Assembly (NCBI RefSeq): GCF_006345805.1
Contig: NC_043015.1
Coordinates: 14,570,001-14,634,000, forward strand
Direction: 5' to 3'
Length of the DNA stretch: 64,000 nt
DNA from: Octopus sinensis
Lineage: Eukaryota
A program made the position numbers and the translations under genes. This document shows, piece by piece, positions 4,551 to 58,890 of this stretch (position 1 is the first letter of the stretch; each line of letters begins with the position of its first letter). The notes under the pieces were generated by a model. The model did no database searches. It had not been told where the DNA came from and saw nothing but the letters and a program-made list of their open reading frames with translations.

Positions 4551-5041
4551 TCAAATATTTTTGAAGTCAGAGAAAAGTAGGAAATCTTGGAAAGATTTTG
4601 GCAAAGGGAGCTTTGAAACATTAAGGTAAAATAATCTTCCCAGATAATGGCGTATCCATATTCTGCTAATTTGCAGAAGTGTCAGTGGCTGCTGAATAAA
4701 AGAAAACCAGTCATTTTGGTCTACAGTCGTCCAGTCAGCAGTAACATCATCAGAATTCTGTATATAATATCGAATATGATCTTTATCAAAACCAATCAGT
4801 ATGAACTGTTTAATGACTTTTTTAGCCCCTTTTAAAAATGCAAGCTTTACAGGGCAAGATGTTTCTGGAGCGTGAGCGGGACAATTAAAAGAAGCAACAT
4901 GACTTGTATACTTCAATAATGATTCAACAGCTTCAAATCGTCCACTGTGTAAAGCATACCACAGAGGTGTTCGATATTCATTGTCTAAAATATTCAAATC
5001 CAGCCCAGCCTCTAACATGTCTTCAATGCATTCAGAGTGAC
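4551..5041 (-). CDS. ASB-like terminal exon (last ankyrin repeat + SOCS box)
   Basis: Acceptor ctctttttctttag|GTCAC, phase 1, giving HIIALK-G-HSECIEDML; stop TGA at 4553-4551. Confidence 0.92.
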
Positions 5042-6057
5042 CTAAAGAAAAAGAGAAAAAAGAATAAAGTATTAAAAAAGAACTAAAGTTAACAATAAAA
5101 TTTTAAAACGGTATCAAATAAAGAGCTAAAAACCAATTATTTACATTATGTGTATGTATAGATTTATATCTCTGTGTATATGTAAACATACATATATACA
5201 TACACATGCATATATACATATCACATACATGTGTGTGTATAGAAATGTTGAATAGGGAACTAGGAACTTTCTTATTCCAAACTAACTGCTTAAGACTGAT
5301 GTAAAGATATGTAAATGCAGGACTGGGACATAGTTGTTTTAATGAAACATGTATGAAAGAAAATCTATTCCCCATATATACAAATATATTCATATAATAT
5401 ATAAAATTTATATATATTTATATAATATATATATATAGGGACAGGTGCGGCTATGTGGTAAGAAGCGTGCTTCCAAACCATATGGTACTGGGTTCAGTCC
5501 CACTGCATAGCACCTTGGGCAACTGCCTTCTATTATAGCCTCAGGCCGATCAAAGCCTCATGAGTGGATTCGGTCGGTAAAAACTAAGAAAAAAGCCCAT
5601 TTTATGCAGGTGCCATGTAAAAAGCACTTGTGCTGGTACAATGTAAAAGTGCTGATGCCAATGTCATGTTAAAAGCACCCAGTCACAGTGGTTGGTGTTA
5701 GAGAGGGCATCCAGCCATAGAACCAGGCCAATTCAGACTGGAATCTGGTGTAGCTCTCTGGCTTGCCAGTTCCATCAAACTGTCCATCCCATGCCTGCAT
5801 GAAAAATAGTTGTTAAAGGAGGATGATGTGTGTGTCTTTGTGTCTGTTTTTGTCCCCCATCACTGCTTGACATTCGGTGTTGGTTTGTTTATATCTCTGT
5901 AACTTAGTGGTTTAGCAAAAGGAACAAATAGAGTAAGTACCAATTTAAAAAAAAAAGTACTGGGGTTGATTTGTTTGACTAAAAACTCTTCAAAGCAATG
6001 CCCCTGCATGGCTGCAGTCTAATGACTGAAACAAGTAAAAGATAAAATATGATGATG

Positions 6058-6094
<37 letters not shown>

Positions 6095-9000
6095 AATATA
6101 TATATGTATTATATATAATATATACTAGATGTACTCACTGTGACCTGTTGGGTCACAACCACTCCAAGTTGAAAATGTCAATGCGTGGCAGAAAAGGAAA
6201 AAATACTATTTTAAACTTCATGCAATAAAATTCTTAAATAATACAGTTCTCCTGCCTTTGCTATGGCAACATAAACACGACCAAATGTTTCTTCTTTGAA
6301 AACATTCAAATGGTCTTCAACTTTTTTTCCTCACCTTCTTCTTTGCCATTCTTTGTTACAACTGTTCCAAGTGAAATAAATGGGTGCTTCAACATAAAGT
6401 CATGTTTTTGCGAAATCATGATTAATACACAATAAAAAGGATTCTGACAATGTTGTTCATTGACAGTCATATACATCTTCATTATTTCTGAGACATATTC
6501 TTTGTTCATCTGACAGGTGAACTTGCAGTCTCACTATTGCAGGTGCTCATTCATGAATTGAAAATCCTAAAATGGATGCAACTGCTTCAGATGGGCAAAT
6601 ATACCTACCCGTTAGGTATTGACTAATTCCATTAACATTGTTTATTTGAACAGCAACTTGGTCATTTCCTTTCAGCGTGTACTTGATGACGTACTTAATT
6701 AACCTCACTGAGGCAACGATTTCAATGTTGCAGTGGCATTTAAATGCTCTTAAAAGTTCATATGAGATTCAACACCTCCCATTGCAACTGACTTTCACCT
6801 ATAAAGAGATAGCCTCTTTGTCTGTTTTTCTGCCTTTTGATTAAGATGATAAAGATTGATATCTTATTTTAAACATTAGGCTGTCACACATGAAATGTTG
6901 TATTTGAAAAGTAACAATAAAATGTTTCAGAAGTGTTAGAGAACTGATTTATTTAATCAAGGTATGATCCCTGTTCATTTATGACCTTTACCCAACATTT
7001 CTCTAAGTCATACATTCCATCTTTTGCTGTGATAAACTGTCTGAATGCTTCAATCACCTCTTCTCTTTTTAAGAATGTTTAAGTGCATATGAAAAACTCA
7101 AAATGCTTAAATAAGTGATTATCAGTAGGAGAGATATAGGGAGGATGTTGTAAAATCTCATAATTAAGGCTTTGCAACTTTTGGACCATATCTTTTGAAG
7201 TGTGAGGACGTGCATTGTTGTGGAGCAAAATTGGGTCATCTTTATTCACTTGTCTGGGTTGCTTCTTTTTCAAATTCTATTGCATATAATCAATTTCCTG
7301 GCAATACGATGTTGCTGTTACCATTTTCCCTCATTGCAAAACTGAATAATGAATACCACCCTACGCAGACCACTAACTTCTGAAGGAGCAATGGTGGATT
7401 TGGGTAGTGTTTAGGTTACTCTCCTGAATCTAATCCCTGTCCAGCTCTCCTGATGTTGTCAAAGAGTATCCATTTCTCATCACATGTCCAGACCTGTGGC
7501 TGGTGCAAAGTTGCAAGCAGAGCAAGGGTGATGTGGTGGTAGAACAAGTAGAGCTATGGAAGCAAAGAGACAGGCTTGGAAAGATTGGAAGACTGGCACA
7601 ACAGAGAACTATGACATCTATCTCGAAGTGAAGCTAGGAGACAGGTCTGGTTGATGAAGGAAGAAGCAGAAAGGAAGAGGTTTGACAATCTTCTACAGAG
7701 TAAGGACTAGGGGCATGAGGTGTTCTGCATTGGAAGACAGTGCATCAGAGAAAATTGTGATGTTGTAGGAGCGAAGTGTGTATGGATGAAAATAAACTTA
7801 CACTGGAGGCATAGAAGTATCACAATGGGAGGCTACAAAATGTGGAAAGAGTATATTTACACATACACACATTATATTTTCATATTGATATACATACATT
7901 TATAGATCAATAGTTAGAAAAATACCTTTCAAAGCTATGATGTGCATAGCTGTTTTCTGAGCCGAAGAGCTGTCTTTCATATTAACATCACAATTAGCTT
8001 TTGTTAGAAGATGGATAACTTTTGAGAACCCTTCTATTGCTGCCAGCATAAGAGGTGTGTTACCACTGTCATTGTACACATTAGGATTTGCTCCTGCTTT
8101 CAGTAGTTGTTTCACCCCAGTTGCTTTATGTGCTGCATGATGAAGAGCTGTCCATCCATAACAATCAGTTGCATTCACATCACAGTCTGGCCGAGATAGA
8201 ACTTCCTCTAAAATCAAATACTTCTTTTTAATAACTGGAAAAAAAAAAAACAACAACTGAACTGTTAGGAACACCACAAGGTACTCTTCATGCTTTATAA
8301 TGTAATTTTATTAAAAAATGACACTGAAATAATTGGGTGATATTCATGATAATAGTAGCAGCTAACCTAGTTGAAGTGACTTGTTACTAGGATTTTCTTC
8401 AAATATTAGCTTTTGTTAAGGTAGTGACGAGGCAAAATGTTTTGTGGTATTTCAACCGTCTTTATGTTCTGACTTTACCTTTCATCTTTTTGGGGTTGTT
8501 AAAATAAATACAAGTTGAGTACTGGGGTCGATGTAATCGATTTACTCCTCCCAGAAATTGCTGGCCTTGTGCCAAATTTTGAAATCGATTTTAGCTTTTG
8601 ATGAAGAATTACTTTTTTGTTATGTAATTGAAAAGATTTTATTGCTGAATCTCACTTCAATTAGGAAACACTTGAAAAAATAATCTATACATTTCCTTGT
8701 AAATATACTACTATAAATTTGTAATTTAAATTTTATCATTAGATGCTAGAACAAAAAGGAGAAATTTATAAAAAATTCGTCAAATTTTATCTCAGTTTGT
8801 CTAATTTTATCTCAACATAGAACAAATGAAAAATATATAACAAAATTACTCAATTTCATTTATTCATGCAATTCTTATGTTTTACTGAGAACAAATGTAC
8901 TGAGAAAGCAGTTGGGCATAGAAATAACATTTGCAATAATATGGATTAATAACAGATAATACAGACTGGATAATGGATTCTTGAAGTAAAAGAAGACCAA

Positions 9001-12000
9001 GGAAGATGTGAGAGGATAGGATGAGCTCAGATATGAGACCTTTGGGGTTGACAGATGAGATAGCCTAGGGTATAGACCTTGTATCCAGGTCATAATGTAA
9101 AACTAAAAGCTAAAATGATGGTGATGATGATGATAAAAGGTTTTAGCCTAGTGTTGTTGCATCTCAGATAATTTCCATTATATTTGTTAAAATCATTACT
9201 GAATAAGATCAAAATTCAAAGAATTTTGAGTCGCAATATATCAAATTTTCAACATCAATGAACAAGCCTATCTAATTAGTGTTCATTTGATAAGTAGTTG
9301 CCAAGATTCTACTATTGTTACACAGAGAACACTGTCATAGATCATAATAGAATGAATAATCTTTCAAATTATTTTTTTTAATAAACTTTTACTTTAAGGA
9401 AACACTCAATCAGTAGTCATCAATATAAAAAATGTGAATCAGTGTGAGTCAGATTGAAATTGAATAGATTCGATAAAAATTAAATTTAATAAGATGTCAA
9501 AAGAGTTTTTTTGTATTTTGTTATATTCTTAAATTGTGCTGGGGTTCCATACTGTACAAACGAAAAAGTTCATTGCCAGAACCTGTTGACATGAAGAGGC
9601 CAATAACACATTAGACTACTAGCTCAGAAGAACTCAAGAACTCAAATTCTAATCTATTATAATAAAAATAAAGCCAAACTGTTCAACCTATTCCAGCTAT
9701 GGAAAGAAAAAAGATGTAAATTTATGATGATAATGATGTTATTAAATTCTGTGCATTTTGTCAAAATAGAAATTGGTAGGAGTATTAATAAAAACAGTAT
9801 TAGAAACAGTGGTGGAAGATCTGGCAGTAGTGTAGAGCATGCTGGGCAAAATACTTAGTGACATTTCTTCTGGTTTTACATTCTGAGTTCAAATTCTATC
9901 AAAGCTGACTTTGCTTTCATCCATTTGGCATTGATAAAATATATACCAGGCCAATGTAATTGACTATCCAATTCCTACAGAATTTCTGGCCTTGTGCCAA
10001 TTGGGGAAAAGATTATTATTATTATTATTATTCAATGGAAATTGTAGCTGTGATACCAGTGCCAGTGGCATGTAAGAGAACCATCCGAATGTGGCGTTGC
10101 CAGCGCCGCCCCGACTGGCCTCCGTGCCAGTGGCACATAAAAAGCACCATCTGATCGTGGCCGTTTGCCAGCCTTGTCTGGCACCTGTACCGGTGGCATG
10201 TAAAAAGCACCCACTACACTCACGGAGTGGTTGGCGGTAGGAAGGGCATCCAGCCGTAGAAACATTGCCAGATCAGACTGGGCCTGGTGCAGCCTTCTGG
10301 CTTCCCAGACCCCAGTTGAACCGTCCAATCCATGCTAGCATGGAAAGTGGACGTTAAACAATGATGATGATGATTATTATTATTTAGAATTGTGGTTTTA
10401 AAGGTAGTGTTGAAAGTATTGTTAAGTTTGAAAGAATAGGCAGTACTCTTGGTTATCCTAAGTAAGATTGATGAGTTATTACTGAGTTTGAACAACTCCA
10501 AACCAACATCTGCAGGAAAAACTTAAGCAGGAAGGGAATTCCAGAGGTTTTCAGGTTTCCAGTAGACTGTTGGAATGAAAGTGCCCTATGATGCCAAAAG
10601 AACCTGCAATATTGAACCTGAAGAAACATAGATCTATGTACTGGGCATCTGAACAAGAACTTAATCTTAGCTAAACTTTGATAGTTCACCATTGAATCTT
10701 GATATGATGTGTAATCTACAGGAAATATCAGTCTCCTCTCACATAACAATTGTCAGATTTCTGCAGTCAAATACTGATTACTGAGAGACTACAATTGTGA
10801 TTTTTGAGGATAAAAAGAAAGATCTTTGATGAAATGGTATGGTATAATTTTCACACACCTGAATGTTCAAACAGTTCATTTGGAAATGGCTTTTACTCAT
10901 GTCATAAGATATCAACAAGAAATTCATGTCAAAAAGAGAAAAATTATCTTTTGTACATCTAATAAAGGAATATATCTAATTGGCATAAAAAGGGATTAAA
11001 GAACCAGTTTGAAGATAGGGTGTTCACCAGATCTCTAGCCAATTACTTCAAAGGAAGATTTAGTGGGAACTTAATTATCCTGCAGTATCTCATTTTGCCA
11101 GCGTCGAGTAAAGGCTGATTTATTCTTGATGGAAGGTTTTAGATTCAGTCATACATGAAGAGCTGCATACACACAGTTTTCTGTGAAGTTATAATGGAAA
11201 ATGAATGTACTCTGATAAAGAACTCAGAGTACAAATGATCTTAGTGTGCGCACATCAAGCAATCTTTTTCAATAAGTTTTAAACTTTCTGGAAAATGGGC
11301 ACCAGATCCAATATCTTACTGATTTATCAAAAGAACATGGACCCAGTAATATCATCCTAGTACCAACTCAACAGAAAGAGTATGCAGCACAAATGAAATA
11401 TCAAGGTTTGAGATTTGTTATTGATGACCAATGTTTCTAAGGAAACAATCTGGACACTGAAAGAATCTTTGAGGATAAAAGACAGTGTTGTAACATTATT
11501 TACATTTGACGGATATTTGTCCTCATCTTGTTTATTGTTAACATGTTTCAGCTGATACAACCCTCCAGTAGCCCGTGCTCTTAACCACTATGCCTTATGC
11601 CCAAACTTTATGTACATAATTCCTCATCTCTTAAATATAGAACAGTGTTGTAACAGTTGTTCAAGTGAAAATAGTTTCAACATTCCAAGTGTATGACATA
11701 TCTTCTGTTTGGTTCTGAGTTGATCATCAGAATCATACTTATAAAGTGTAGTGATCTTTCATTGATATTTGTTGATATATTGTAAAAAGTGAGTACACAG
11801 TGTTTTGGAAATTTTAGTATTTTCTTACTCTAGATAAAGGTAGATAACTAAGTATTGGCATTCGTATAGGGGTTCTTGTGTCTTTGAAAGAAAATGTTCG
11901 AAGGACTGGTTTAACAGCTAATTGGATTTCATGTTGTACAATATACTTGAGTGAATAAAACTCACAAATCCATAAATATAATTAGAAATATTTAGTTATA

Positions 12001-14504: not shown

Positions 14505-17500
14505 ACAGTGTGGACTTGAGACATTGAGATTTTGTTGTGTGTGGGACGTGGTGGGACATGCCTGAAAAGATGTTATTCACTCAGTTATTTCTGATGGGTC
14601 AAGAGTAAGCATGTGAGCTGCCAAGGATCCTCAACTAGTTGGGTGTCTTGAAGGACTAGTGTGCAATATGTGAGTGTGTGTAGGACAGCTTCAATGAAGT
14701 AGAAGTTGGAACTTCCAATAAGTACAGAGACAGACATGGTTTGGAGGTGAGAAAGAGACCATGAGTGTTTGAAGTAATACTTCAAACACTCTTGGTCAAA
14801 TATTCACTGTGTGAGTGGGAAACGGAATAAGCCTATAATAGAAAACAACAGTAGTTGTGGTGGCTTTCAAAGCTATTTTAAAGCAAATTATACTTGAGAT
14901 GTAGCTTTTATTAATATCTGATGTTTCAGTTTCATAATTTTTTCCAGACTACACAGATATAAAAGTCTTCTGCATGTGATGTTAAATCAAAGTTAGTATA
15001 ATAACTGTAGCCATTTCATTTTTATTATAAGCAAATTATCTTAAGATTTAACTCTTAAAACATAATTTCCAATAATTTGCAATCTTTTAACTGATAATCA
15101 ATAAACTTTGTAAGGGAATACACATTTATTTGCTATACACATGTATAGCAAATAAATGAGTGCTGGCGAGAAAGTACCACATATTGACTGCAATATTTTT
15201 ATGTTCAGAATTGTTGAAGCATAGAATAAACAACCAGTGGAGGTTGTTAGCTGTCAGGGACACTGCATCCTCTGAAATTTCTGTTCTTTCTGAAATTAGC
15301 CAACACTATTCCTGATGTTCCATCCTTTCCTCTTGATGGCTTTTTTCACTTTTTTCTTAGTTGTTTCAAGGATTTAATCAAACAAATCACTTCTAGTATT
15401 TATAACTAAGTCTGGTTCTTATTCTGTCAGCTTCTTTTGCTGAACCACTAGGTGATGGGGATGCAAACAAACCAATACTGGTTGTCAAGTAGTGGTGGGG
15501 AGACAAACACAAATACATACTATGGCACCACACAGTTTCCTTCCACCAAATTCACTCACAAGGTAACATTGGTCAGCTTAAAGCTTTAGTAGATTAAACA
15601 TGCCGAAGGGGCAGCACCTGTCTTTTTGTGTCATATTCCATCTATACTGCAAACATTTGGCTATCATTATTGTGTCTCTTTATTTGACTTATTGCTGCTT
15701 TCTGTCTCCTTGTTTACTCTTTTCTGATGAGTTGTAGAACAGCTGAGCATTACATACATAAGCTCATTATCATTTGTAAAATATCAAGCTGGCAGAATCA
15801 TTATTCGCATGCCAGACAAAATGCTTAGTGGCATTCCATCTGTCATTACGCTCTGAGTTCAAATTCTGCTGAGGTTGATTTTACCTTTCATCCTTTAGAG
15901 ATCGATAAAATAAGTACCAAGTGAACATTGATATCATAGAAATTGTCTTACCTCTCCACTAAAATTGCTGGCCTTGTGCCAAAATTTGAAATCATTATTT
16001 TAAGATATCTGTGACAAAGAAAGGGATGAAAAGCAATGATAGAAAGTCTCAGGTTGTTGGATTTCAGAAACAAGACAATGCAGGATTGAGCAAAGTAGTA
16101 AGTTGCTTATACTGAAAACCTGATGGTAAATATATCAAATGAATATATATGATTGAAGTGAATGACTTTTCACTTTACTGGTATGACTTATTTAACTCGT
16201 ACAGTTTATATAATGTCTTCAGTTCAGTACGAATGAGCTGAAAGATTCCTAATCTAATTTCTCGCCATATTACAGTTAGCTATTTTGTTGTAATTATTTT
16301 TTACAAGATTACACTTGACACCATTGATTGCATCACTAGTTTTCATATAGGTTTGGTGATGCATACAGGAAAATATGCTTTATTTCATGATAACTTCTAC
16401 ATTGACAGGAACACCTATACATGCTTTATTGCATACAGGAAAATAGAACTCATATGTGTGTGTGTGTGTGTTTTATTATTAATCAGCAGAAGGTGCATAG
16501 TGACTCAAGGACTGAGAGTTTTGTACCTTGGCATGAAGTTCTCAGCCCTTGATTCACTCTGTAAGTTTTGCTGATTATTAATGAAATAGTTTTCGTATAC
16601 TAATTAATACTGATATTTAATGAAGAAAGAAGAAAGATGAATGTTTGAAACAACTGACCTCAAAATATAAACAAACTAATATCTATAACATGGGAAGAAC
16701 ATAAAAGAATTAAAATTAAAGTACCTACTTGAAATAATAAGAGGTGTATTTTGTCCAGGATCTCTAGTATTGATATCAACACCATTGTCCAAGAGGATTT
16801 GGAAACATTGTAACAAGTCCTTCTGTGCAGCAATATGGATGGCAGCATTTCCACTCTTAGCTGTCATATAGCAGTCACATTTTGCTTCAATTAAAGCTTT
16901 TATAATGTCTGGTTTATTTTCTTTTGTAGCCAAGATCAATGGTGTTTCTCCAGAACTATTTTGGCAGTCAATATCAGCACCGGCTTTGATCAGAGAGTTT
17001 GTGCATTCTATGTAGCCTTTCTCTGAAGACAAAAGTAAAGCTTCTTTCAATTCATTTTTTGGTACACTGCCTGGGACATCCAGAAGCAATGATAAAATAC
17101 GTTGATTGTTCTGCTTCACACAACTAACCACACTGGATGAAAAGTAGAAAATAAAAAATTAAATTCAGTGAACCTTTTTATACAGAACAGAATTCAAGGT
17201 CATTTATAACACTTCAGTAATGAGAATGAATAACCCACAGATGCCATCTGAATGAAATACAACAGTTAAGTTTGTGATGACATATTTCATTACAAAAGAG
17301 CTAACTGGAAATAATAATGCAGTGATGGAAAAACAATATTAGTCAATGGCTAATATCAATTTCATATTTACTGAATGATTCTCTTATCATTTTGACAAGT
17401 ACAACAAAGACTATGATTCACTGATGAGGTCCATAGTAAGTGAAACTTGACTGGAGTTGTCTGCTGTATATGCAGAAGGAAAGCAAAATCCTGGATTTGG

Positions 17501-31800: not shown

Positions 31801-32098
31801 ACCGCGTTTGTAAGTATTTGCTTTTTTATTATCCTGTTCCAAACTATTTATGTATGTATGTATGTATGTATGTATGTATGTATGTATGTATGCATGTATG
31901 CATGCATGCATGCTTGCAAGCATGCGTAGGCATGGTTGTGTGGTTAAGAAGCTCACTTTGCAATCATGTGGTTTCAAGTACCATTTCGCTGTGTGGTGCC
32001 TTGGCCAATCTTTTACATAACTCCAGGCCAATAAATACTGATGAGTGAATTTGGTAGATGGAAGTTGCATGGAAGCCTGCTGTATACACACACACACA

Positions 32099-32135
<37 letters not shown>

Positions 32136-32421
32136 TCATCATCATCATCGTTTAACGTCCGTTTTCCATGCTAGCATGGGTTGGACAGTTCAACTGGGGT
32201 CTGGGAAGCCAGAAGGCTGCACCAGGCCCAGTCTGATCTGGCAGTGTTTCTATGGCTGGTTGCCCTTCCTAATGCCAACAACTCTGTGAGTGTAGTGGGT
32301 GCTTTTTACGTGCCTCCGGAACGGGGGCCAGGCGAGGCTGGCAACGGCCACAATCGGATGGTGCATTTTACGTGCCACCAGCACGGAGGCCAGTTGGGGC
32401 GGCACTGGCAATGGCCACGTT

Positions 32422-32450
<29 letters not shown>

Positions 32451-32458
<8 letters not shown>

Positions 32459-32767
32459 ATATTTCGGAATGGTCATTTTGCCAGTTTAGCCAATAAAAAC
32501 ACACGCACTATATATTTGGTGTTATTTTGCTTCAGTGTTATTTATTTTTTACATTAATCTTAATCTTATTTCGGCCAGAGTTCTTTCGTCACACTCCTGT
32601 GACCGCATCAGTGGTCCTTTGTTTTCTTCTTTCTTATTTGTGTCTCTCCTTACTAACCGTCAGCCATTTTGTATTTCTATTGTATGTCTTCATTTGCGCA
32701 TGCTTATATCTCTATGTGCGTCTATTGGCTAAACTGGCAAAATGACCATTCCGAAATATAACAATAT
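32451..32767. mobile_element. Inverted-repeat element with ~45-bp perfect terminal arms and an internal hammerhead-like motif
   Basis: ATATTGTTATATTTCGGAATGGTCATTTTGCCAGTTTAGCCAATA and its exact reverse complement at the right end. Confidence 0.85.
32573..32617 (-). ncRNA. Minimal type I hammerhead ribozyme-like motif (core variant CUGAUGC-G)
   Basis: Minus strand: GGACCA CUGAUGC G GUCACA-GGAG-UGUGAC GAAA GAAC UC UGGCC. Confidence 0.65.
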
Positions 32768-33325
32768 CTGTTTCAACACAAAACTTCACATAAAAAATCT
32801 TGCACAACAAATATTTAAACATATATATATATATATAGTTCCAGTCATTAGAGGACTATGATGAATAAGAGGGGGCTGAGGACTGATCCTTGGTGGAACC
32901 CTACCCCAACCCGGAATTCTTATTTGTATGTATGTATGTATGTATGTGTGTGTGTATGTGTGTGTATATGTGTTTGTATGTGTTTGTGTATGTGTGCATC
33001 ACTGCTTGATGATCAGTGTTGGTGTGTTTATGTCCCTATAACTTAGTGGTTTGGCAAAAGAGATCAATAGAATAAGTATCAGGATTAAAAAAGTACTGGG
33101 GTCAATTAATTCAACTAAACATTCTTCAAGGCAGTGCCCCAGGATGGCCAGAGCCTAATGATTGAACAAGTGAAAAGATAAAAAAGTGACATTTACAATT
33201 ACATATAAACTAATACATATATAGAGACAAAAACAGTATATAGACAAGAGGAACATATATATACCAATGAAGATATATGAATTCAGATATAGAAGCGTGA
33301 ATAAACATGCATAAATATATAGACA

Positions 33326-38211: not shown

Positions 38212-39689
38212 TTAAGAGATGTTGAATGTTTAAGCCTAAGGTTCGAGAATGATTTACAGTATATGCAAAATAATTAGTTGAAAAACTTATATATTCACAT
38301 CTTCTATTTTATATCTTTTAATTGTTTCAATCATTAGACTGTGGTCATACTGGGGCACTGCTTTGAAGAATTTCAGTTGAATGAATCCACTCCAGTACTT
38401 ATTTTAAGACTGGCATTTATTCTATTGAGGCAAATGAAATCGAAGTCGAAATCAAATTCGGTGACTGGCATCCATTGCTAGTGGAGCGCTAAGAGTACCG
38501 TACGAGTGAGATCATTGCCAGAGCAACAAGCTGGCCTTTGTGCCGATGGTACGTTAAGCACACCATTCAAGTGTGATTGTCACCACGTCGCCTTACTAGC
38601 ACTTGTGCTGGTGGCATGTGAGATACTCAAGCAAGGTTGTTGCCAGTGCCACTAGACTGGCTCCTATGCAGGTGACACGTAAAAAGTACCATTTGGGCGT
38701 GGCTGCTGCCAGTACCACCAAACTGGCCCTCGTGCCAGTGGCACGTAAAAGCACCCACTACACTCTCGGAGTGGTTGGCGTTAGGAAGGGCATCCAGCTG
38801 TAGAAACTCTGCCAGATCAGATTGGAGTCTGGTTTGCCAGACCTCAGTCAAATCGTCCAACCCATGTTGCATGGAAAGCGGACGTTAAATGATGATAATG
38901 ATATCTATATATATATATATACATGAGTGTATGTATGAATTCTAAATGTTTGTGTATGTATGTTGGTGTGTGCATCTACACACATACACACACGTTTGTA
39001 GTTTGTATGTATGTATGTATGTAGGTTTAGTACATACCAGCATTGCTTGTGGGATTTGAACACTGAATCTGCTGTAAACCATATTGCTGAAGTGATCATT
39101 ACCTTCAAGTAACATCACAATTTTGACAATCAAATGAAGAAACTTAACCCAAATAGCTAGCATTTTATACCGGAGGCCTGTTGATGGGGATCACAGTACT
39201 TGCAGTATCAAGTTTGGATGTAAATATGCATGCACACACACACATACATGTGCACATGCATACATACAGATAAACAGACACATACACACACACACATGCA
39301 TGTGTGCATGCACACATACATACAGACACAGACACATGCACACATACGTAGACACACACACACACACATATATTGCCATGAAATATGGAAAATGGTGACA
39401 AGAAGTAGGATGCATTTCACTTGCGATGCCTGAGGAAGATCCTTAAACTTATCTTGAGAAACAGAATTACACATGAAAAAATTCTTCCACAAAAAGCAAA
39501 TCTCAGCAAAGGCAAATTCTTGTTGCACTCTGCTGATTCAACCTACTGTGTCTACTAGTTACATAGCAAGTAGAAACTGCCATGATGTAGACACAGTAGA
39601 AAGGAAAAAAGGCCATTCCCAAAACTCTTGGCTGCAAGCAATCCTGGAAAACCTCAAATGCCCCAGGACATAAATCTAGTGGCATCAAA

Positions 39690-40720
39690 GATAAAGTAGT
39701 ACATAACCACTCTAGAATTAACCACGATAATAAGAAACCTAAAAATAGGCCAAGGAAAATTATTTGGTTTGCCCCTCCCTTTTCCCTTAATGCGAAAACT
39801 AACATTAGCAAAAGATTCCTGTCACTCCTAGACACACTTTCCAGCCACTCAAAGATACAGGAAAATATTTAATAGGTGTTCTGTGAAATTATCATATAGC
39901 TACTGCCCCTGTATGAAGAGTATCATTACATGTGGTCACTACCAAGAGCCTGAATCCAGTTGCAACTGTTGCGACCCAGGTTCCTGTCCACTTGACCAAC
40001 GATGTATGACTAAATCTATCATATATGAGGCAGAAGTTACTGCAACCGTAAATAATAGTACAACTGATAAGAAGACCTATATTGGACTATGTGAAGGAGA
40101 ATTAAAAAATTGCTGTACCAATTACATAGCCTCATTCCCACATAGGGACAAAAGTAAAGCTACTAAGTTGGCTAGCTACATATGGACTTTGAAACATAAT
40201 GAAACACTGCATATAATTAAATGGAAAGTAATTGAGAAATCCATACCTTACTGACTTTGTTTGGCTGAAAGAGCACAGATCCTGTTCAGATCTAAGGTCC
40301 CTAACTTTCTATTGAACTCCAGGTCAGAAATTTTCAGTGGTTGCATGCATATTTTTAAATATATTTTGAAGAATTGGAAACTTCCACCTATTCCTGACTG
40401 GCATGATATCTTTCCAGCCTTATCATTTAAGCTCTAAGGAGAATAGCTCTTTTACCATTTTACTTTTTATTCTTGACATTTCAGTTTCTGTTTTATGTTT
40501 TCTATTTTTCATTTTCTGTTGTTTACAGTTTGTGTTTTCTATATGCTGCCTTCTCAGTTTTTCTGTGTTTCTTCTATTATTCAGTTTCTTTAGTTCGTTA
40601 TGACATGTGGTTTGTGCCTGAAGAATATGTTTGAGTTTTCTCAAAATATGAAACTATTAGTAGCACTTTAATACATGTATTGTGACCTTTAAATAAATAA
40701 TATTTATCTCTCACCAGATG
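39690..40720 (+). mobile_element. Penelope-like retroelement 3' part (GIY-YIG endonuclease + pLTR)
   Basis: [35 protein letters not shown] (GIY-YIG), LCLAE, LNSRSEI..C.H; hammerhead in the 3' region. Confidence 0.9.
40614..40666 (+). ncRNA. Type I hammerhead ribozyme (canonical core)
   Basis: GUGC CUGAAGA [AUAUGUUUGAG-UUUU-CUCAAAAUAU] GAAA CUAUUAG UA GCAC: 4-bp stem I, 10-bp stem II with one bulge, near-palindromic stem III, GUA cleavage triplet. Confidence 0.85.
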
Positions 40721-46549: not shown

Positions 46550-48340
46550 ATGGACATGATCCAAAAGTTCAGTTCTTGAATTTAGACATGTGGCTGAGTC
46601 TAAGCTGCTTTTCCAGATGAGCCGTCTTTCCATGCCACAAAGACTGCACTTTCCACTGCTGTTGGCTAAGATCTTCCAATGGAAGTTGTAACTGACACCT
46701 TTATCTTTTAAGGACCATATATGACTGGATAATTTGGTTGTTTCCTTTTATCCCAGTGCCTGAAGCTCAAGGTGTTATTATTGAACCTGGCCTTGAAATT
46801 CTCCTCTGTAAGGCCTACATAGTTTTTTGTCAAAACTGTGTTCTTAGTGATTGTAGAGTCTACAGTGGCTTCATAAATGATGGTCTCGGACATGCATGCT
46901 CTATTTAGCAGGCACAAATTTTTGCCCCTGCATGAACAGCTGGTTTCATTTTATGATTTTTGTGTGTTGTGTATGGTTATATTTTAAAATTAGTAGTTGA
47001 GCTGAAACTGATTTTTAAGTTATGTCTATTGAAGAGCTTTCTGTAACTATGATTAACTGGAAAATGTCTACCTATCAGTGCTAAGAAATACTTACCTATA
47101 TTAAAGGTCACTTCAGTGGAGTAGGAGGCTGTGAACCAGATAATTTTCCTATTCCTATGCTTCCTTTTCTTTATAATTAGACTGGTGACAGGTGTATAGC
47201 TTATTTCCTTGCTAAATGCACTATCTTTTAGAGCCTTATTATTTACTGGGGCAACGCTATTAAAAATGTCTCTATCGGAGGAGAGGCTAGAAATTCTTTT
47301 GCTAATGTTTTTAACTAAATTTTTAAACGTTGTGGAGGATAGCAGGAACTCACATTAATATAACTAAGTCTATCATTGTGCTTCCTATAAGATTTATAAA
47401 TCATCATCATCATCATCATTTAACGTCTGCTTTCCATCCTAGCATGGGTTGGATGATTTGACTGAGGTCTGGCGAACCAGATGGCTGCACCAGACTCCAA
47501 TCTGATCTGGCAGAGTTTCTACAGCTAGATACCCTTCCTAACGCCAACCACTCCGAGAGTGTAGTGGGTGCTTTTACGTGCCACCGGCATGAGGGCCAGG
47601 CAGGCGGTACTGGCAACAGTCACGCTCAAATGGTGCTTTTTATGTGCCACCTGCACAGGAGCTAGTCCAGTGGCACTGGCAATGACCTCACTGGTATGTT
47701 TTTCACGTGCCACCAGCACAAGTGCTAGCAAGGCGACACAGGTAACGATCACGCTCGAATGGTGTTTTTAATGTGCCATCAGCATGAAGGCCAGCTTATT
47801 GCTCTGGCAACGATCTCACTCGTATGGTACCCTTAGTGCTCCACAGCATGGATAGATTTAAGGATACATCTAGGAAATTGACAACCGTCAGGTTGGTATC
47901 TGTAGTTATGCTAAGACCGAAAGTTTTCATCATTTGGATAATGTCCTTCATAAACTGATCTTGTGCTGGTCCATTGGTATTTGTGGTTAAAGCTCGGGCA
48001 TAATCTTTGTAAATGGCAAAATGTACATCAGGAAAAGTCTTGTCCAACACATTGAGTAGGAATAGTCCAATGAATCGCATATGCCTGCTCCATCATATGA
48101 CCCTATGCTCACATTGAAAGCACCCTCTCTATCGGTAGTCTTGACCCACTCTGCATTCTCACTGAAGAGTAAAGTCTTTCTAGCATGGAAGATTATGGCC
48201 TTATCTTGTGTACTAATTACTCTTCCAGGGCTTAACAATTGTTTCCAGGATCTCAATGTAGGTGGCAGTGTTAACTCTAAGGCATTGTGGAAAGAAATAA
48301 GGAGGCATCACATGTCCTTCATTGCTGACAACCCCTAAAA
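46550..48340 (-). mobile_element. Decayed Penelope-like retroelement (RT + GIY-YIG), interrupted by a family C SINE
   Basis: IIFHARKTLLF, FNVSIGSYDGAGIC, IYKDY (YRDD equivalent), VNFLDVSLNL; TIIYEA..YVGLTE..FKARFNN. Confidence 0.9.
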
Positions 48341-49636: not shown

Positions 49637-50347
49637 CCCTTTTAATACCAACCTGGCTGAAACTGTCTCTGGCTTTGTAGTACAAATGTCTTGTCTGCAA
49701 AACTTCTGAATTAAAATCTTCCACAATTTATGTTCTAACACTAGCTTAATGATAACTAAGTTATTTTACTAAATTCTTTGTTATCATCATTATCATCATC
49801 ATTGTTTAACATCCGTTTTCCATGCTAGCATGGGTTGGACGGTTCGACCGGGGTCTGGGAAGCTAGGAGGCTGCACCAGGCTCCAGTCTGATCTGGCAGA
49901 GTTTCTACAGCTGGATGCCCTTTCTAACGCCAACCACTCTGTGAGTGTAGTGGGTGCTTTTTACATGCCACCGGCACAGGTGCCAGGGGAGGTTGGCAAC
50001 GGCCACGATCAGTTGGTGCTTTTTACGTGCCACCAGCACAGGTGCCAGGGGAGGCTGGCAACGGCCACGATCAGTTGGTGCTTTTTACGTGCCACCAGCA
50101 CAGGTGCCAGGGGAGGCTGGCAACGGCCACGATCAGTTGGTGCTTTTTACGTGCCACCAGCACAGGTGCCAGGGGAGGCTGGCAACGGCCACGATCAGTT
50201 GGTGCTTTTTACGTGCCACCAGCACAGGTATCACAACTACAATTTCCATTTGATTTTTTGATGTTGATGCACTTGACTCAATAGGTCTCCTCTTAAAATT
50301 AATTGAAAGAAACAGAGCATCTCAACAGAAATATGGTAACAAAAGGT
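49637..50347. mobile_element. piggyBac-like MITE split by a family C SINE
   Basis: TTAA|CCCTTTTAATACC ... GGTAACAAAAGGT|TTAA. Confidence 0.75.
49953..50228. repeat. 62-bp tandem repeat (about 4.5 copies) inside SINE family C
   Basis: Unit GGTGCTTTTTACGTGCCACCAGCACAGGTGCCAGGGGAGGCTGGCAACGGCCACGATCAGTT at 49953, 50015, 50077, 50139, 50201. Confidence 0.95.
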
Positions 50348-56788: not shown

Positions 56789-56889
56789 TGGAGGTAAAAA
56801 AATACATAAACCACCAGTTTTTGGCATTACAAAAACCCTAAAACTAACCCTAGCCACCGGGTATACGTATTCTTTACCTATATCTCTTA

Positions 56890-57528
56890 CTAGCAGTATC
56901 GCCCGGCGTTGCTCGGGTTTGTAAGGGAAATAACTATATAAGCATTTTTAGAGAGTTATAGCAAAAAAATAGCAAAAAATGCATTAAAAATGGAAAAAAT
57001 ATGATGGTAAATTTTTTTTTAAATCGTTGACTCATCGTAGACATTTTTAGAGAGTTACTTCCCTTATATAATAGCGAAAAAATGCATTAAAAATGGAAAA
57101 AAAAACGATGGTAAATTTTTTTTTAAATCGTAGACTCATGTAGACGCTTTCTTAGCCATTTCTGTTTTGGTGTCTTCAAGCCATGAAGTCGTTGTTCTAA
57201 AAGAACACTGGTCTCCTTGACAACGCATTACGACATTGATTTCCTTACACTCCCTTCCCCACAGGTGCAGGTGTGAGCGTGGACGCCAACTCCGCCGCCA
57301 TCGACACACGAAAAATTATGCATTAAAATGGAATAAAAAATGATGTTAAATAATTTTTAAAATCGTAGACTCATCGTAGACGCGCGCTAATATTCAGACA
57401 GGCTCGATATGAATCACGACTATAAGCTACCCGAATTTGGTTAAACTGCACCGCAAAATGTGGGAGTAGTTAGGAATCTAAATCGAAGGGGACAGACACT
57501 CACACAACTACAGTTTTATATATATAGA
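56890..57528 (-). mobile_element. Non-autonomous Helitron (left arm of inverted duplication)
   Basis: TCTATATATATAAAAC start, hairpin + CTAG|T end. Confidence 0.9.
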
Positions 57529-57534
57529 TATACA

Positions 57535-57910
57535 TAGCGCAGTAGTGGTGAGATGTGACAGCAAAGAAAAGCATACATTCACTCTCTGCATGCAATTAGA
57601 CTCGGAAAGTTCGTGAGGAACCCATTGACCCAATTTGCTGACTTTTCCGATAGCACACAGGTCTCAATGAATGGTTGAATGACCAAATCCAAGCTTCTCT
57701 GCTAGTTCCTCAACAGTTACGATGAGATTTTGTTCCACCAGGGTTTTCAGGATGTCCTTGTCGAGTTCTACAGATCTTTCAGGATGAGGCTCGTCTTCTA
57801 GGCTGTAGTTTATGGCTCGGAATTTCTGGAACCACCATTGACACTGCCTTACGCTTATTGTCCAATCCCCATATACTGCATTAATATTTCTTGTACTTTG
57901 CACACATTTA
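57535..57910 (-). mobile_element. Mariner transposase N-terminal fragment
   Basis: WFQKFR..SLEDEP HTH region and KLGQWVPHEL motif. Confidence 0.88.
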
Positions 57911-58217
57911 TATTCTGTTATTCTTTTATATGTTTCAGCCTTGAGGTTGTGGCCATGCTGGATCATGTGTGTGTGTGTGTGTGTGTCTATCTGTCTGTCT
58001 GTCTGTATGTATATATGTATATATATATGTGTGTGAACAATAATATTTTCAACAGATGTGTTGCAAATGTATCTGATTGTTCTCAAGCTTCAATACTGTG
58101 TGTGTCAGCAAATTGGGTCAATGGGTTCCTCACGAACTTTCCGAGTCTAATTGCATGCAGAGAGTGAATGTATGCTTTTCTTTGCTGTCACATCTCACCA
58201 CTACTGCGCTATGTATA

Positions 58218-58870
58218 TCTATATATATAAAACTGTAGTTGTGTGAGTGTCTGTCCCCTTCGATTTAGATTCCTAACTACTCCCACATTTTGCGGTGCAG
58301 TTTAACCAAATTCGGGTAGCTTATAGTCGTGATTCATATCGAGCCCGTCTGAATATTAGCGCGCGTCTACGATGAGTCTACGATTTTAAAAATTATTTAA
58401 CATCATTTTTTATTCCATTTTAATGCATAATTTTTCGTGTGTCGATGGCGGCGGAGTTGGCGTCCACGCTCACACCTGCACCTGTGGGAAGGGAGTGTAA
58501 GGAAATCAACGTCGTAAGGAAATCAACGTCGTAATGCGTTGTCAAGGAGACCAGTGTTCTTTTAGAACAACGACTTCATGGCTTGAAGACACCAAAACAG
58601 AAATGGCTAAGAAAGCGTCTACATGAGTCTACGATTTAAAAAAAAATTTACCATCGTTTTTTTTCCATTTTAATGCATTTTTTCGCTATTATATAAGGGA
58701 AGTAACTCTCTAAAAATGTCTACGATGAGTCAACGATTTAAAAAAAAATTTACCATCATATTTTTTCCATTTTTAATGCATTTTTTGCTATTTTTTTGCT
58801 ATAACTCTCTAAAAATGCTTATATAGTTATTTCCCTTACAAACCCGAGCAACGCCGGGCGATACTGCTAG
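58218..58870 (+). mobile_element. Non-autonomous Helitron (right arm of inverted duplication)
   Basis: Near-identical reverse complement of 56890-57528. Confidence 0.9.
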
Positions 58871-58890
58871 TTTATATATATATATATATA

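What the first reader, a model, noticed from the sequence alone, without database searches (positions are those of the whole stretch)
32451..32767. MITE-looking 317-bp element hides a variant hammerhead ribozyme
Seen: ~45-bp perfect terminal inverted arms next to a (TA)n tract enclose, on the minus strand (32617-32573), GGACCA-CUGAUGC-G-GUCACA(GGAG)UGUGAC-GAAA-GAAC-UC-UGGCC. Stem I, a perfect 6-bp stem II, GAAA and an NUH (CUC) site are correctly placed, but core A9 is C with an extra G, and stem III is minimal. Known: Penelope-like elements carry minimal type I hammerheads in their pLTRs and often form inverted pLTR structures. Inference: this is not a DNA-transposon MITE but a non-autonomous, ribozyme-bearing retro-mobilised unit (solo inverted pLTR or retrozyme-like) with a non-canonical core that standard motif searches would miss.
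Basis: partly seen in the sequence, partly recalled or inferred. Interest (0 to 1): 0.75.

Follow-up and report, generated by a model that had tools for sequence, protein, structure and literature searches.

The report
Penelope retrotransposon stump with mutated hammerhead
This apparent MITE is two cut-short ends of an abundant octopus Penelope-type jumping gene joined back to back, and its hammerhead self-cutting RNA motif carries a core change, missing from the family's older copies, that likely weakens cutting yet did not stop the family from spreading.

Summary
The arms and the hammerhead motif are real, but the unit is longer (32451 to ~32822). It is neither a MITE nor a separate non-autonomous element. 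It is a head-to-head pair of 5'-truncated 3' ends of an abundant Octopus Penelope-like element (PLE): 4.4-4.6 kb tandem unit, RT plus C-terminal GIY-YIG, open frames up to 1,120 aa. One arm carries a ~53-nt tail; 95 of 98 inverted pairs examined have a tail at one end only. The motif is a minimal type I hammerhead in the pLTR, and the extra nucleotide after position 9 is the published norm. A9C is derived. Older subfamilies keep canonical A9 (181 exact matches, 3.5% diverged). Younger ones carry C9 (1,388 at 2.6%; 674 with U17 at 0.8%). Copies do not pile up at the predicted cut, and 51 of 100 arms read through it, so templates were mostly uncut. Most likely the ribozyme is weakened or dispensable; cleavage is untested. 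The layout is well known, and the scan found it before in other octopus families. Modest interest: a dated natural loss of a core base, and an RT with an unusually long fingers insertion.

The parts
32425..32454 (.). (AT)n microsatellite at the left end (target-like; boundary with the arm ambiguous by the shared ATAT)
   Evidence: most tail-less arm ends in other copies also run into (TA)n
32451..32725 (-). Long arm: 5'-truncated 3' end (pLTR) of the Penelope-like element, ending at the tail-less terminus
   Evidence: matches query 1-275/276 at 92-99% in 11 of the 30 fetched loci; lies downstream of the RT/GIY-YIG ORF in L006, L065-L072
32573..32617 (-). Minimal type I hammerhead motif, A9C variant: stem I 32617-32612/32577-32573, core from 32611, C9 at 32605, extra G 32604, stem II 32603-32598/32593-32588, GAAA 32587-32584, U16.1-C17 32579-32578
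   Evidence: sister subfamily with canonical A9
32721..32725 (.). Junction of the two arms with 3-5 nt microhomology
   Evidence: sequence of the window against full-length copies
32723..32767 (+). Short arm: second, more truncated copy of the same pLTR end in the opposite orientation
   Evidence: 24 of 100 anchored arms stop within ~20 nt upstream of the 3' anchor
32768..32820 (+). One-sided 'tail': the first ~53-56 nt of the element body that follow the pLTR in tandem full-length copies
32821..32838 (.). (TA)n at the right end

Best explanation
This is a two-armed, doubly 5'-truncated insertion of an octopus Penelope-like retrotransposon, likely made when the element's RT-endonuclease primed two cDNAs in a (TA)n target, and its pLTR hammerhead carries a derived A9C change that likely weakens or abolishes self-cleavage without blocking amplification. 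Shown here: the parent element, its tandem layout, the one-sided tail, and the order A9 (oldest), C9/C17, C9/U17 (youngest). Inferred steps: (1) A tandem copy is transcribed across the pLTR-body junction. (2) The protein nicks both strands of AT-rich DNA and starts reverse transcription at two internal RNA sites ~55 nt apart, as shown in vitro for Anolis PAc. (3) Both cDNAs stop early (~275 nt; ~45 nt plus tail) and join by 3-5 nt microhomology, giving 3' ends that face outwards and mimic a MITE. (4) The RNA templates were mostly uncut at the hammerhead. (5) C9 cannot form the A9-G12 sheared pair (recalled structure), so the ribozyme is probably a weakened relic on which selection relaxed.
For: Parent: the same end follows an RT + GIY-YIG ORF. 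111 protein matches were scored from 8,972 first-look candidates, with open frames up to 1,044 and 1,120 aa. Best database hit 97% to an Octopus vulgaris protein. Tandem copies have hammerheads 4,413-4,574 bp apart in 4 of 4 loci fetched; 14 of 30 N-terminal loci have a direct 5' pLTR. Tail at one end only in 95 of 98 distinct inverted pairs, sizes 118 bp to 5.8 kb. This layout and the two-start-site origin of the tail are published. Exact motif counts: A9 181, C9 2,109, of which C17 1,388 and U17 674. Divergence from own subfamily majority, 30 pattern-picked loci each: 3.5%, 2.6%, 0.8%; p = 0.02 for A9 vs C9/C17 and 7e-7 for C9/C17 vs C9/U17. U17 is absent from both organism-B runs laid, about 35% in an organism-A run and 9% in an organism-C run, while A9 (16-26%) and C9 occur in all four. 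All 56 representative PLE hammerheads in the Cervera 2014 alignment have A9 (their descriptor required it). 51 of 100 anchored arms read through the cut. Junctions at the cut number at most 24 genome-wide against 20 and 18 at control offsets. HHR mutants did not affect PAc insertion in vitro (PMC11167929).
Against: No cleavage assay and no raw RNA reads, so loss of activity is inferred. I found no measured A9C rate in papers read. The A9 vs C9/C17 age gap is modest (p = 0.02), and the bootstrap of my tree had not settled. Read-through was not measured separately for A9 arms, so it may hold for the canonical form too and then says nothing about A9C. The rest of the motif is intact in the youngest subfamily, and its only other fixed change (C17U) obeys the NUH rule, which fits continued function. 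3 of 14 direct 5' pLTRs begin 8-14 nt after the cut, though at AT-rich microhomologies. A circular or re-ligated template would also be read through. 5 of 44 pairs with two cores have A9 in one arm and C9 in the other, which a single uniform template does not explain.
Confidence: 0.8

Rival explanations
1. Same Penelope stump, but the C9 hammerhead is a functional non-canonical core. The extra G could take over position 9, or the ORF protein or a dimer partner could rescue folding. It would process tandem transcripts at a step other than the one that supplies the RT template.
For: Stems I and II and all other core bases are unchanged from the most diverged A9 copies (79-82% to the window copy) to the youngest subfamily. 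C17U keeps NUH. PAc's hammerhead cleaves only with protein. Some natural core variants retain low activity (PMC3088659 section 8). Predicted C9-G12 mispairing is only 6-8%.
Against: No compensatory change accompanies C9. Subfamilies differ by only 3-6%, so an unchanged 45-nt motif is expected by descent (2 changes in ~45 nt versus 16 in ~250 nt of flank). Loop III gives no stable dimer helix (+1.4 kcal/mol). No pile-up of ends at the cut.
Confidence: 0.2
2. A separate non-autonomous retrozyme-like unit that spreads by its own small circular RNA.
For: 57 of 98 inverted pairs examined are 450 bp or shorter. Animal retrozymes are proposed to derive from PLE pLTRs (bioRxiv 10.64898/2026.07.22.740005, abstract only).
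Against: No fixed unit length or shared internal junction: the nearest copies have different junctions. Upstream sequence always continues into the autonomous element's 3' UTR and ORF. Tandem spacing is the 4.4-4.6 kb coding unit.
Confidence: 0.04
3. A DNA-transposon MITE (for example Ginger-like, TGT...ACA ends with a 4-bp ATAT duplication).
For: 53-nt inverted arms whose inner part begins TGTTA and is flanked by ATAT on both sides in this copy. The Ginger terminus rule is recalled.
Against: The right 'flank' is element sequence, the tail. Arms vary from ~50 bp to 2 kb, and the longest inserts hold RT/GIY-YIG sequence, not a transposase.
Confidence: 0.01

Closest known systems
Insertions of endonuclease-positive Penelope-like elements with inverted pLTR and one-sided tail (Arkhipova 2013 PMC3846280, passages; Craig 2021 PMC8557442, passages, section 12, supplement parts 53-54 of 59)
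   Same: Partial tandems, head-to-head inverted truncated copy, tail at one end, (TA)n targets, hammerhead in pLTR, N-rich insert in the ORF
   Different: Tail ~53-56 nt rather than 30-40; here both arms are reduced to pLTR ends so the insert looks like a MITE
Minimal type I hammerheads of metazoan PLEs (Cervera & de la Pena 2014, PMC4209133; main text parts 1-2 of 4, supplement file 2 parts 1-2 of 3)
   Same: CUGANG core, one extra nucleotide before G10.1, G10.1-C11.1, 6-bp helix II, short helix I, near-absent helix III, NUH; the A9 subfamily fits fully
   Different: C at position 9 in most copies (all 56 listed representatives have A); extra nucleotide is G (their consensus H; G in 1 of 56); loop III is not palindromic
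Poseidon PAc of Anolis carolinensis (Frangieh 2024, PMC11167929; parts 1-2 of 4)
   Same: Two ends ~tail-length apart, AT-rich targets, templates apparently uncut at the hammerhead
   Different: PAc hammerhead overlaps the ORF start and has a canonical core; different PLE clade; nothing biochemical is shown for this family
Nematis / Neptune clades of C-terminal EN+ PLEs (Craig 2021, supplementary Figs S1-S2 as text)
   Same: C-terminal GIY-YIG with CCHH and a C-x4-CxxC linker; short CxxC-to-C spacer (7 aa) as in Nematis
   Different: RT motif A-to-B' spacing is 126-134 aa versus 56-57 in canonical-type hits; DKS instead of DKG; Craig 2021 states C-terminal EN+ PLEs lack this fingers insertion

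Membership tests
EN+ Penelope-like element | Single ORF with PLE-type RT and C-terminal GIY-YIG endonuclease | tested here: met
   RT motifs and GIY-YIG/CCHH seen in L065-L072; Pfam GIY-YIG only weak, E 0.0011, below cutoff; no Pfam hit for the whole ORF; RT-structure hits E 0.00065-0.04
EN+ Penelope-like element | Partial-tandem layout forming a direct pLTR | tested here: met
   14 of 30 N-terminal loci have a direct 5' pLTR; unit 4,413-4,574 bp in 4 of 4
EN+ Penelope-like element | Inverted 5'-truncated copy with a tail at one end only | tested here: met
   95 of 98 distinct inverted pairs, including the window copy
EN+ Penelope-like element | Target-primed reverse transcription by the element's protein | not testable with these tools
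   inferred from PAc
Minimal PLE hammerhead (Cervera 2014) | Core CUGANGA with A9 | tested here: not met
   C9 in the window copy and in 2,109 exact matches; met in the 181 A9 matches
Minimal PLE hammerhead (Cervera 2014) | Helix I, helix II with G10.1-C11.1, one extra nucleotide, GAAA, NUH, location in pLTR | tested here: met
Minimal PLE hammerhead (Cervera 2014) | Palindromic 15.2/16.2 and loop III for dimer formation | tested here: inconclusive
   15.2-16.2 complementary, but the 2-nt loop is not palindromic; dimer duplex +1.4 kcal/mol
Minimal PLE hammerhead (Cervera 2014) | Covariation in stems across families | tested here: inconclusive
   0 of 23 copies changed at 10.2 show a compensating 11.2; subfamilies too close, stems invariant at subfamily level
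Minimal PLE hammerhead (Cervera 2014) | Self-cleavage at NUH | not testable with these tools
   only assembled contigs available; genomic ends show no enrichment at the cut
Non-LTR retrozyme | Non-coding unit of fixed length in head-to-tail arrays | tested here: not met
   variable arm lengths, continuity with the coding element
MITE (DNA transposon) | True terminal inverted repeats, uniform length, TSD, transposase partner | tested here: not met
Nematis clade | CX2-5CxxC linker with short spacer before a C-terminal GIY-YIG | tested here: met
Nematis clade | No insertion between RT motifs A and B' | tested here: not met
   128 aa versus 56-57 aa
Nematis clade | RT phylogeny with named reference elements | not tested
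   no named reference proteins were available as usable sequences

The most novel reading that the evidence does not exclude
The C9 form is an active, protein- or dimer-assisted hammerhead: a natural core lacking A9, fixed in thousands of copies of a young PLE lineage whose RT pairs a telomerase-length fingers insertion with a C-terminal GIY-YIG and fits no clade named in the papers I read.
Probability: 0.2. Interest if true: 0.62.

Novelty: new member of a known kind. Interest (0 to 1): 0.3.

Why it matters
The insert itself is an ordinary Penelope stump; its practical lesson is that such stumps mimic MITEs. The family does give a small natural experiment on an open question raised in Craig 2021: do PLEs need their hammerheads? 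Three dated subfamilies differ at one or two core positions (A9/C17, C9/C17, C9/U17), and the C9 forms have about 11 times more exact matches than the A9 form searched. Assaying the three natural versions would show whether the most successful lineage kept or lost self-cleavage. Separately, the RT's long fingers insertion with a C-terminal endonuclease may mark an unnamed PLE clade.

Tried and rejected
Rfam scan at E<=10: no hammerhead match; only microsatellite-driven miRNA-like hits. MITE/Ginger reading: rejected by the tail and the ORF link. First age estimate (5.2/3.2/1.5%) came from loci picked by different criteria and was replaced by equally picked sets. Apparent excess at the cut: 45 matches, but 15 of the 30 fetched were indels or substitutions with the hammerhead still upstream. 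Six of the 15 unfetched show the same one-base deletion, leaving at most 24, several with recurring arm-to-arm microhomology. The control sets (20 and 18) were not fetched and may also hold indels. Covariation search: none. Sequencing runs: no RNA holder listed on record, contigs only, so no read ends. One search did not list the position-17 variant, laid on a U17 copy, resolved this. Lunse et al. 2017 on PLE hammerhead variants was not held, so I have seen nothing of it and it may already report position-9 variants. Literature searches for A9 variants and for octopus PLE hammerheads gave no report of A9C; Roberts 2023 (PMC9901934, passages) did not name position 9. Searches for a C-terminal-EN PLE with IFD returned only Craig 2021 and one preprint. 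Supplement file 1 of PMC4209133 could not be searched. Empty target site and TSD could not be tested (no orthologous locus; (TA)n on both sides).

Full report
Observation. The inverted arms (32451-32503 / 32715-32767, 53 nt, 94%) and the minus-strand motif at 32617-32573 are present as described. A relaxed minimal-hammerhead descriptor finds only this site in the window and nothing in 60 shuffles. Rfam does not detect it. The boundaries given are too short. In the genome search (105 matches, 30 loci fetched), one arm end is followed by the same non-repetitive sequence in copy after copy and the other end runs into (TA)n. In the window this extension is 32768-32820, followed by (TA)n. The insert is therefore about 372 bp and asymmetric.

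Parent element. Walking upstream of the long arm in other copies leads into an ORF ending in a GIY-YIG endonuclease, preceded by a PLE-type reverse transcriptase. A protein search of the genome scored 111 matches from 8,972 first-look candidates, mostly 84-97% identical, with open frames up to 1,044 and 1,120 aa. The best database relative is a predicted Octopus vulgaris protein at 97%; the unnamed relatives are at 22-50%. Of 30 loci picked by the ORF's N-terminal DNA, 14 have a direct pLTR upstream. There the 'extension' is simply the first ~55 nt of the element body. Four such loci fetched in full have hammerheads 4,413-4,574 bp apart. A 34-nt pattern at the pLTR end has 4,252 exact matches.

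Structure of the insert. Among all loci in hand, 98 distinct pairs of outward-facing 3' ends were found. 95 have the tail at exactly one end, 2 at neither, 1 at both; sizes run from 118 bp to 5.8 kb and 57 are 450 bp or less (loci came from several searches, not a random draw). In 100 arms taken in order along one chromosome, 5' truncation points are spread widely, and 24 stop within ~20 nt upstream of the anchor. That is why short MITE-like palindromes are common; the window's right arm is of this class. The two arms meet at 3-5 nt of microhomology (32721/32723-32725). Inverted truncated copies, one-sided tails and (TA)n targets are published PLE features (PMC8557442, passages; PMC3846280, passages). 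Frangieh 2024 (PMC11167929, parts 1-2 of 4) showed for Anolis PAc that both DNA strands are cut and extended, and that reverse transcription starts at two internal RNA sites that bound the tail. I infer the same here: two cDNAs, one from each start site, both truncated and joined head to head.

The ribozyme. [quoted passage not shown] So the 'extra G' is the normal position, though G is rare there (1 of 56 listed). The real departure is C9. Exact 32-nt matches number 2,109 with C9 and 181 with A9. The A9 copies are mostly a distinct subfamily with their own flanking diagnostic sites. The C9 copies split into C17 (1,388) and U17 (674) forms. For 30 loci of each, picked the same way, divergence from the subfamily majority outside the pattern was 3.5% (A9), 2.6% (C9/C17) and 0.8% (C9/U17). 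Contigs from other runs agree: U17 is absent from two organism-B runs, about 35% in one organism-A run and 9% in one organism-C run, while A9 is 16-26% in all four (depth sums are rough). A more diverged group (79-91% to the window copy, different loop II) also has A9 and the same stems, but it was selected on A9. The order is therefore A9, then C9, then C9/U17. The window copy is a C9/C17 member with zero branch length over the aligned region.

Is it active? Not testable directly; only contigs were available. Indirectly, a template cut at this site would stop cDNA about 130 nt from the pLTR end. 51 of 100 arms read through. Genome-wide junctions at the cut are at most 24, against 20 and 18 at two control offsets. 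Of 14 direct 5' pLTRs, 9 extend beyond the cut, 3 begin 8-14 nt after it at AT-rich microhomologies, and 2 begin further on. So templates were mostly uncut or re-ligated, matching PAc, where hammerhead mutants did not affect insertion. I did not measure this separately for A9 arms. G12 is the general base (PMC6155905, passage); that A9 pairs with it in a sheared pair is recalled. No compensating change accompanies C9, and loop III gives no stable dimer helix. Against this reading, the rest of the motif is intact, C17U respects NUH, predicted C9-G12 mispairing is only 6-8%, and some natural core variants keep low activity (PMC3088659 section 8). I put weakened or dispensable at about 3 to 1 over functional.

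Clade. The endonuclease linker is C-x4-CxxC-x7-C, the short-spacer type seen in Nematis in Craig's supplementary alignment. But RT motifs A and B' are 126-134 aa apart in 60 of the 62 proteins where both motifs were matched (90 examined), versus 56-57 in the two canonical-type hits, and 51 of those 60 also show a C-terminal GIY-YIG pattern. Craig 2021 states that C-terminal EN+ PLEs lack this insertion. I could not place the family with named references, so I file it as an EN+ PLE of unassigned clade.

Other papers seen: PMC6765202, PMC13282606, PMC6962438 and PMC9901934 as passages; bioRxiv 10.64898/2026.07.22.740005 as abstract and outline. PMC13282606 lists recently active Penelope-like families in O. 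vulgaris without mentioning ribozymes. Lunse 2017 was not held. Earlier scan notes describe the same kind of insertion in other octopus families; a look-up by this sequence found none.

Verdict. What adds value is the dated A9-to-C change in the expanding subfamilies and the unusual RT.

Noticed in passing
L070:2764-6123 (-) and proteins P0001-P0084: RT with a ~70-aa longer motif A-to-B' spacing (126-134 aa) combined with a C-terminal GIY-YIG and Nematis-like linker; shared by dozens of unnamed relatives; possibly an unnamed PLE clade.
   Followed up: partly
L095, L097, L337, L342, L343: 5 of 44 inverted pairs with two cores have A9 in one arm and C9 in the other (loci partly picked for A9, and L342/L343 may be duplicates). 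This may mean two different template RNAs or pLTRs per insertion, or later mutation.
   Followed up: partly
window 32500-32726, run X7: Many low-share A>G and T>C changes in one probable RNA run of organism B, editing-like for double-stranded inverted arms; no matched DNA run, so untested.
   Followed up: no
L065:2740-3420, L070: Long asparagine-rich low-complexity insert in the N-terminal part of the ORF, absent from unnamed relatives; similar inserts were described in rotifer PLEs.
   Followed up: no
window 4551-5102, 7900-8307, 16676-17158 (-): Exons of an ankyrin-repeat / SOCS-box (ASB-like) gene; whether the insert lies in an upstream intron was not determined.
   Followed up: partly
window 32097-32426: A different interspersed repeat (copies at 10083-10377, 38640-38937, 47392-47687, 49786-50072) ends exactly at the left (AT)n of the insert and does not visibly resume on the right.
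   Followed up: partly
window 56889-57642 / 58104-58871: A 770-bp inverted repeat at 97% identity around an ORF with a mariner HTH match at 57667-58089; not examined.
   Followed up: no
window 39832-40254, 46977-47354, 47987-48307: ORF fragments that by eye resemble other Penelope-like RT/endonuclease pieces (recalled motifs; one DUF7431 hit).
   Followed up: no
protein P0062: An annotated O. vulgaris leucine-rich-repeat gene model contains a 98%-identical piece of this element's ORF over 19% of the query: exonised fragment or annotation error.
   Followed up: no
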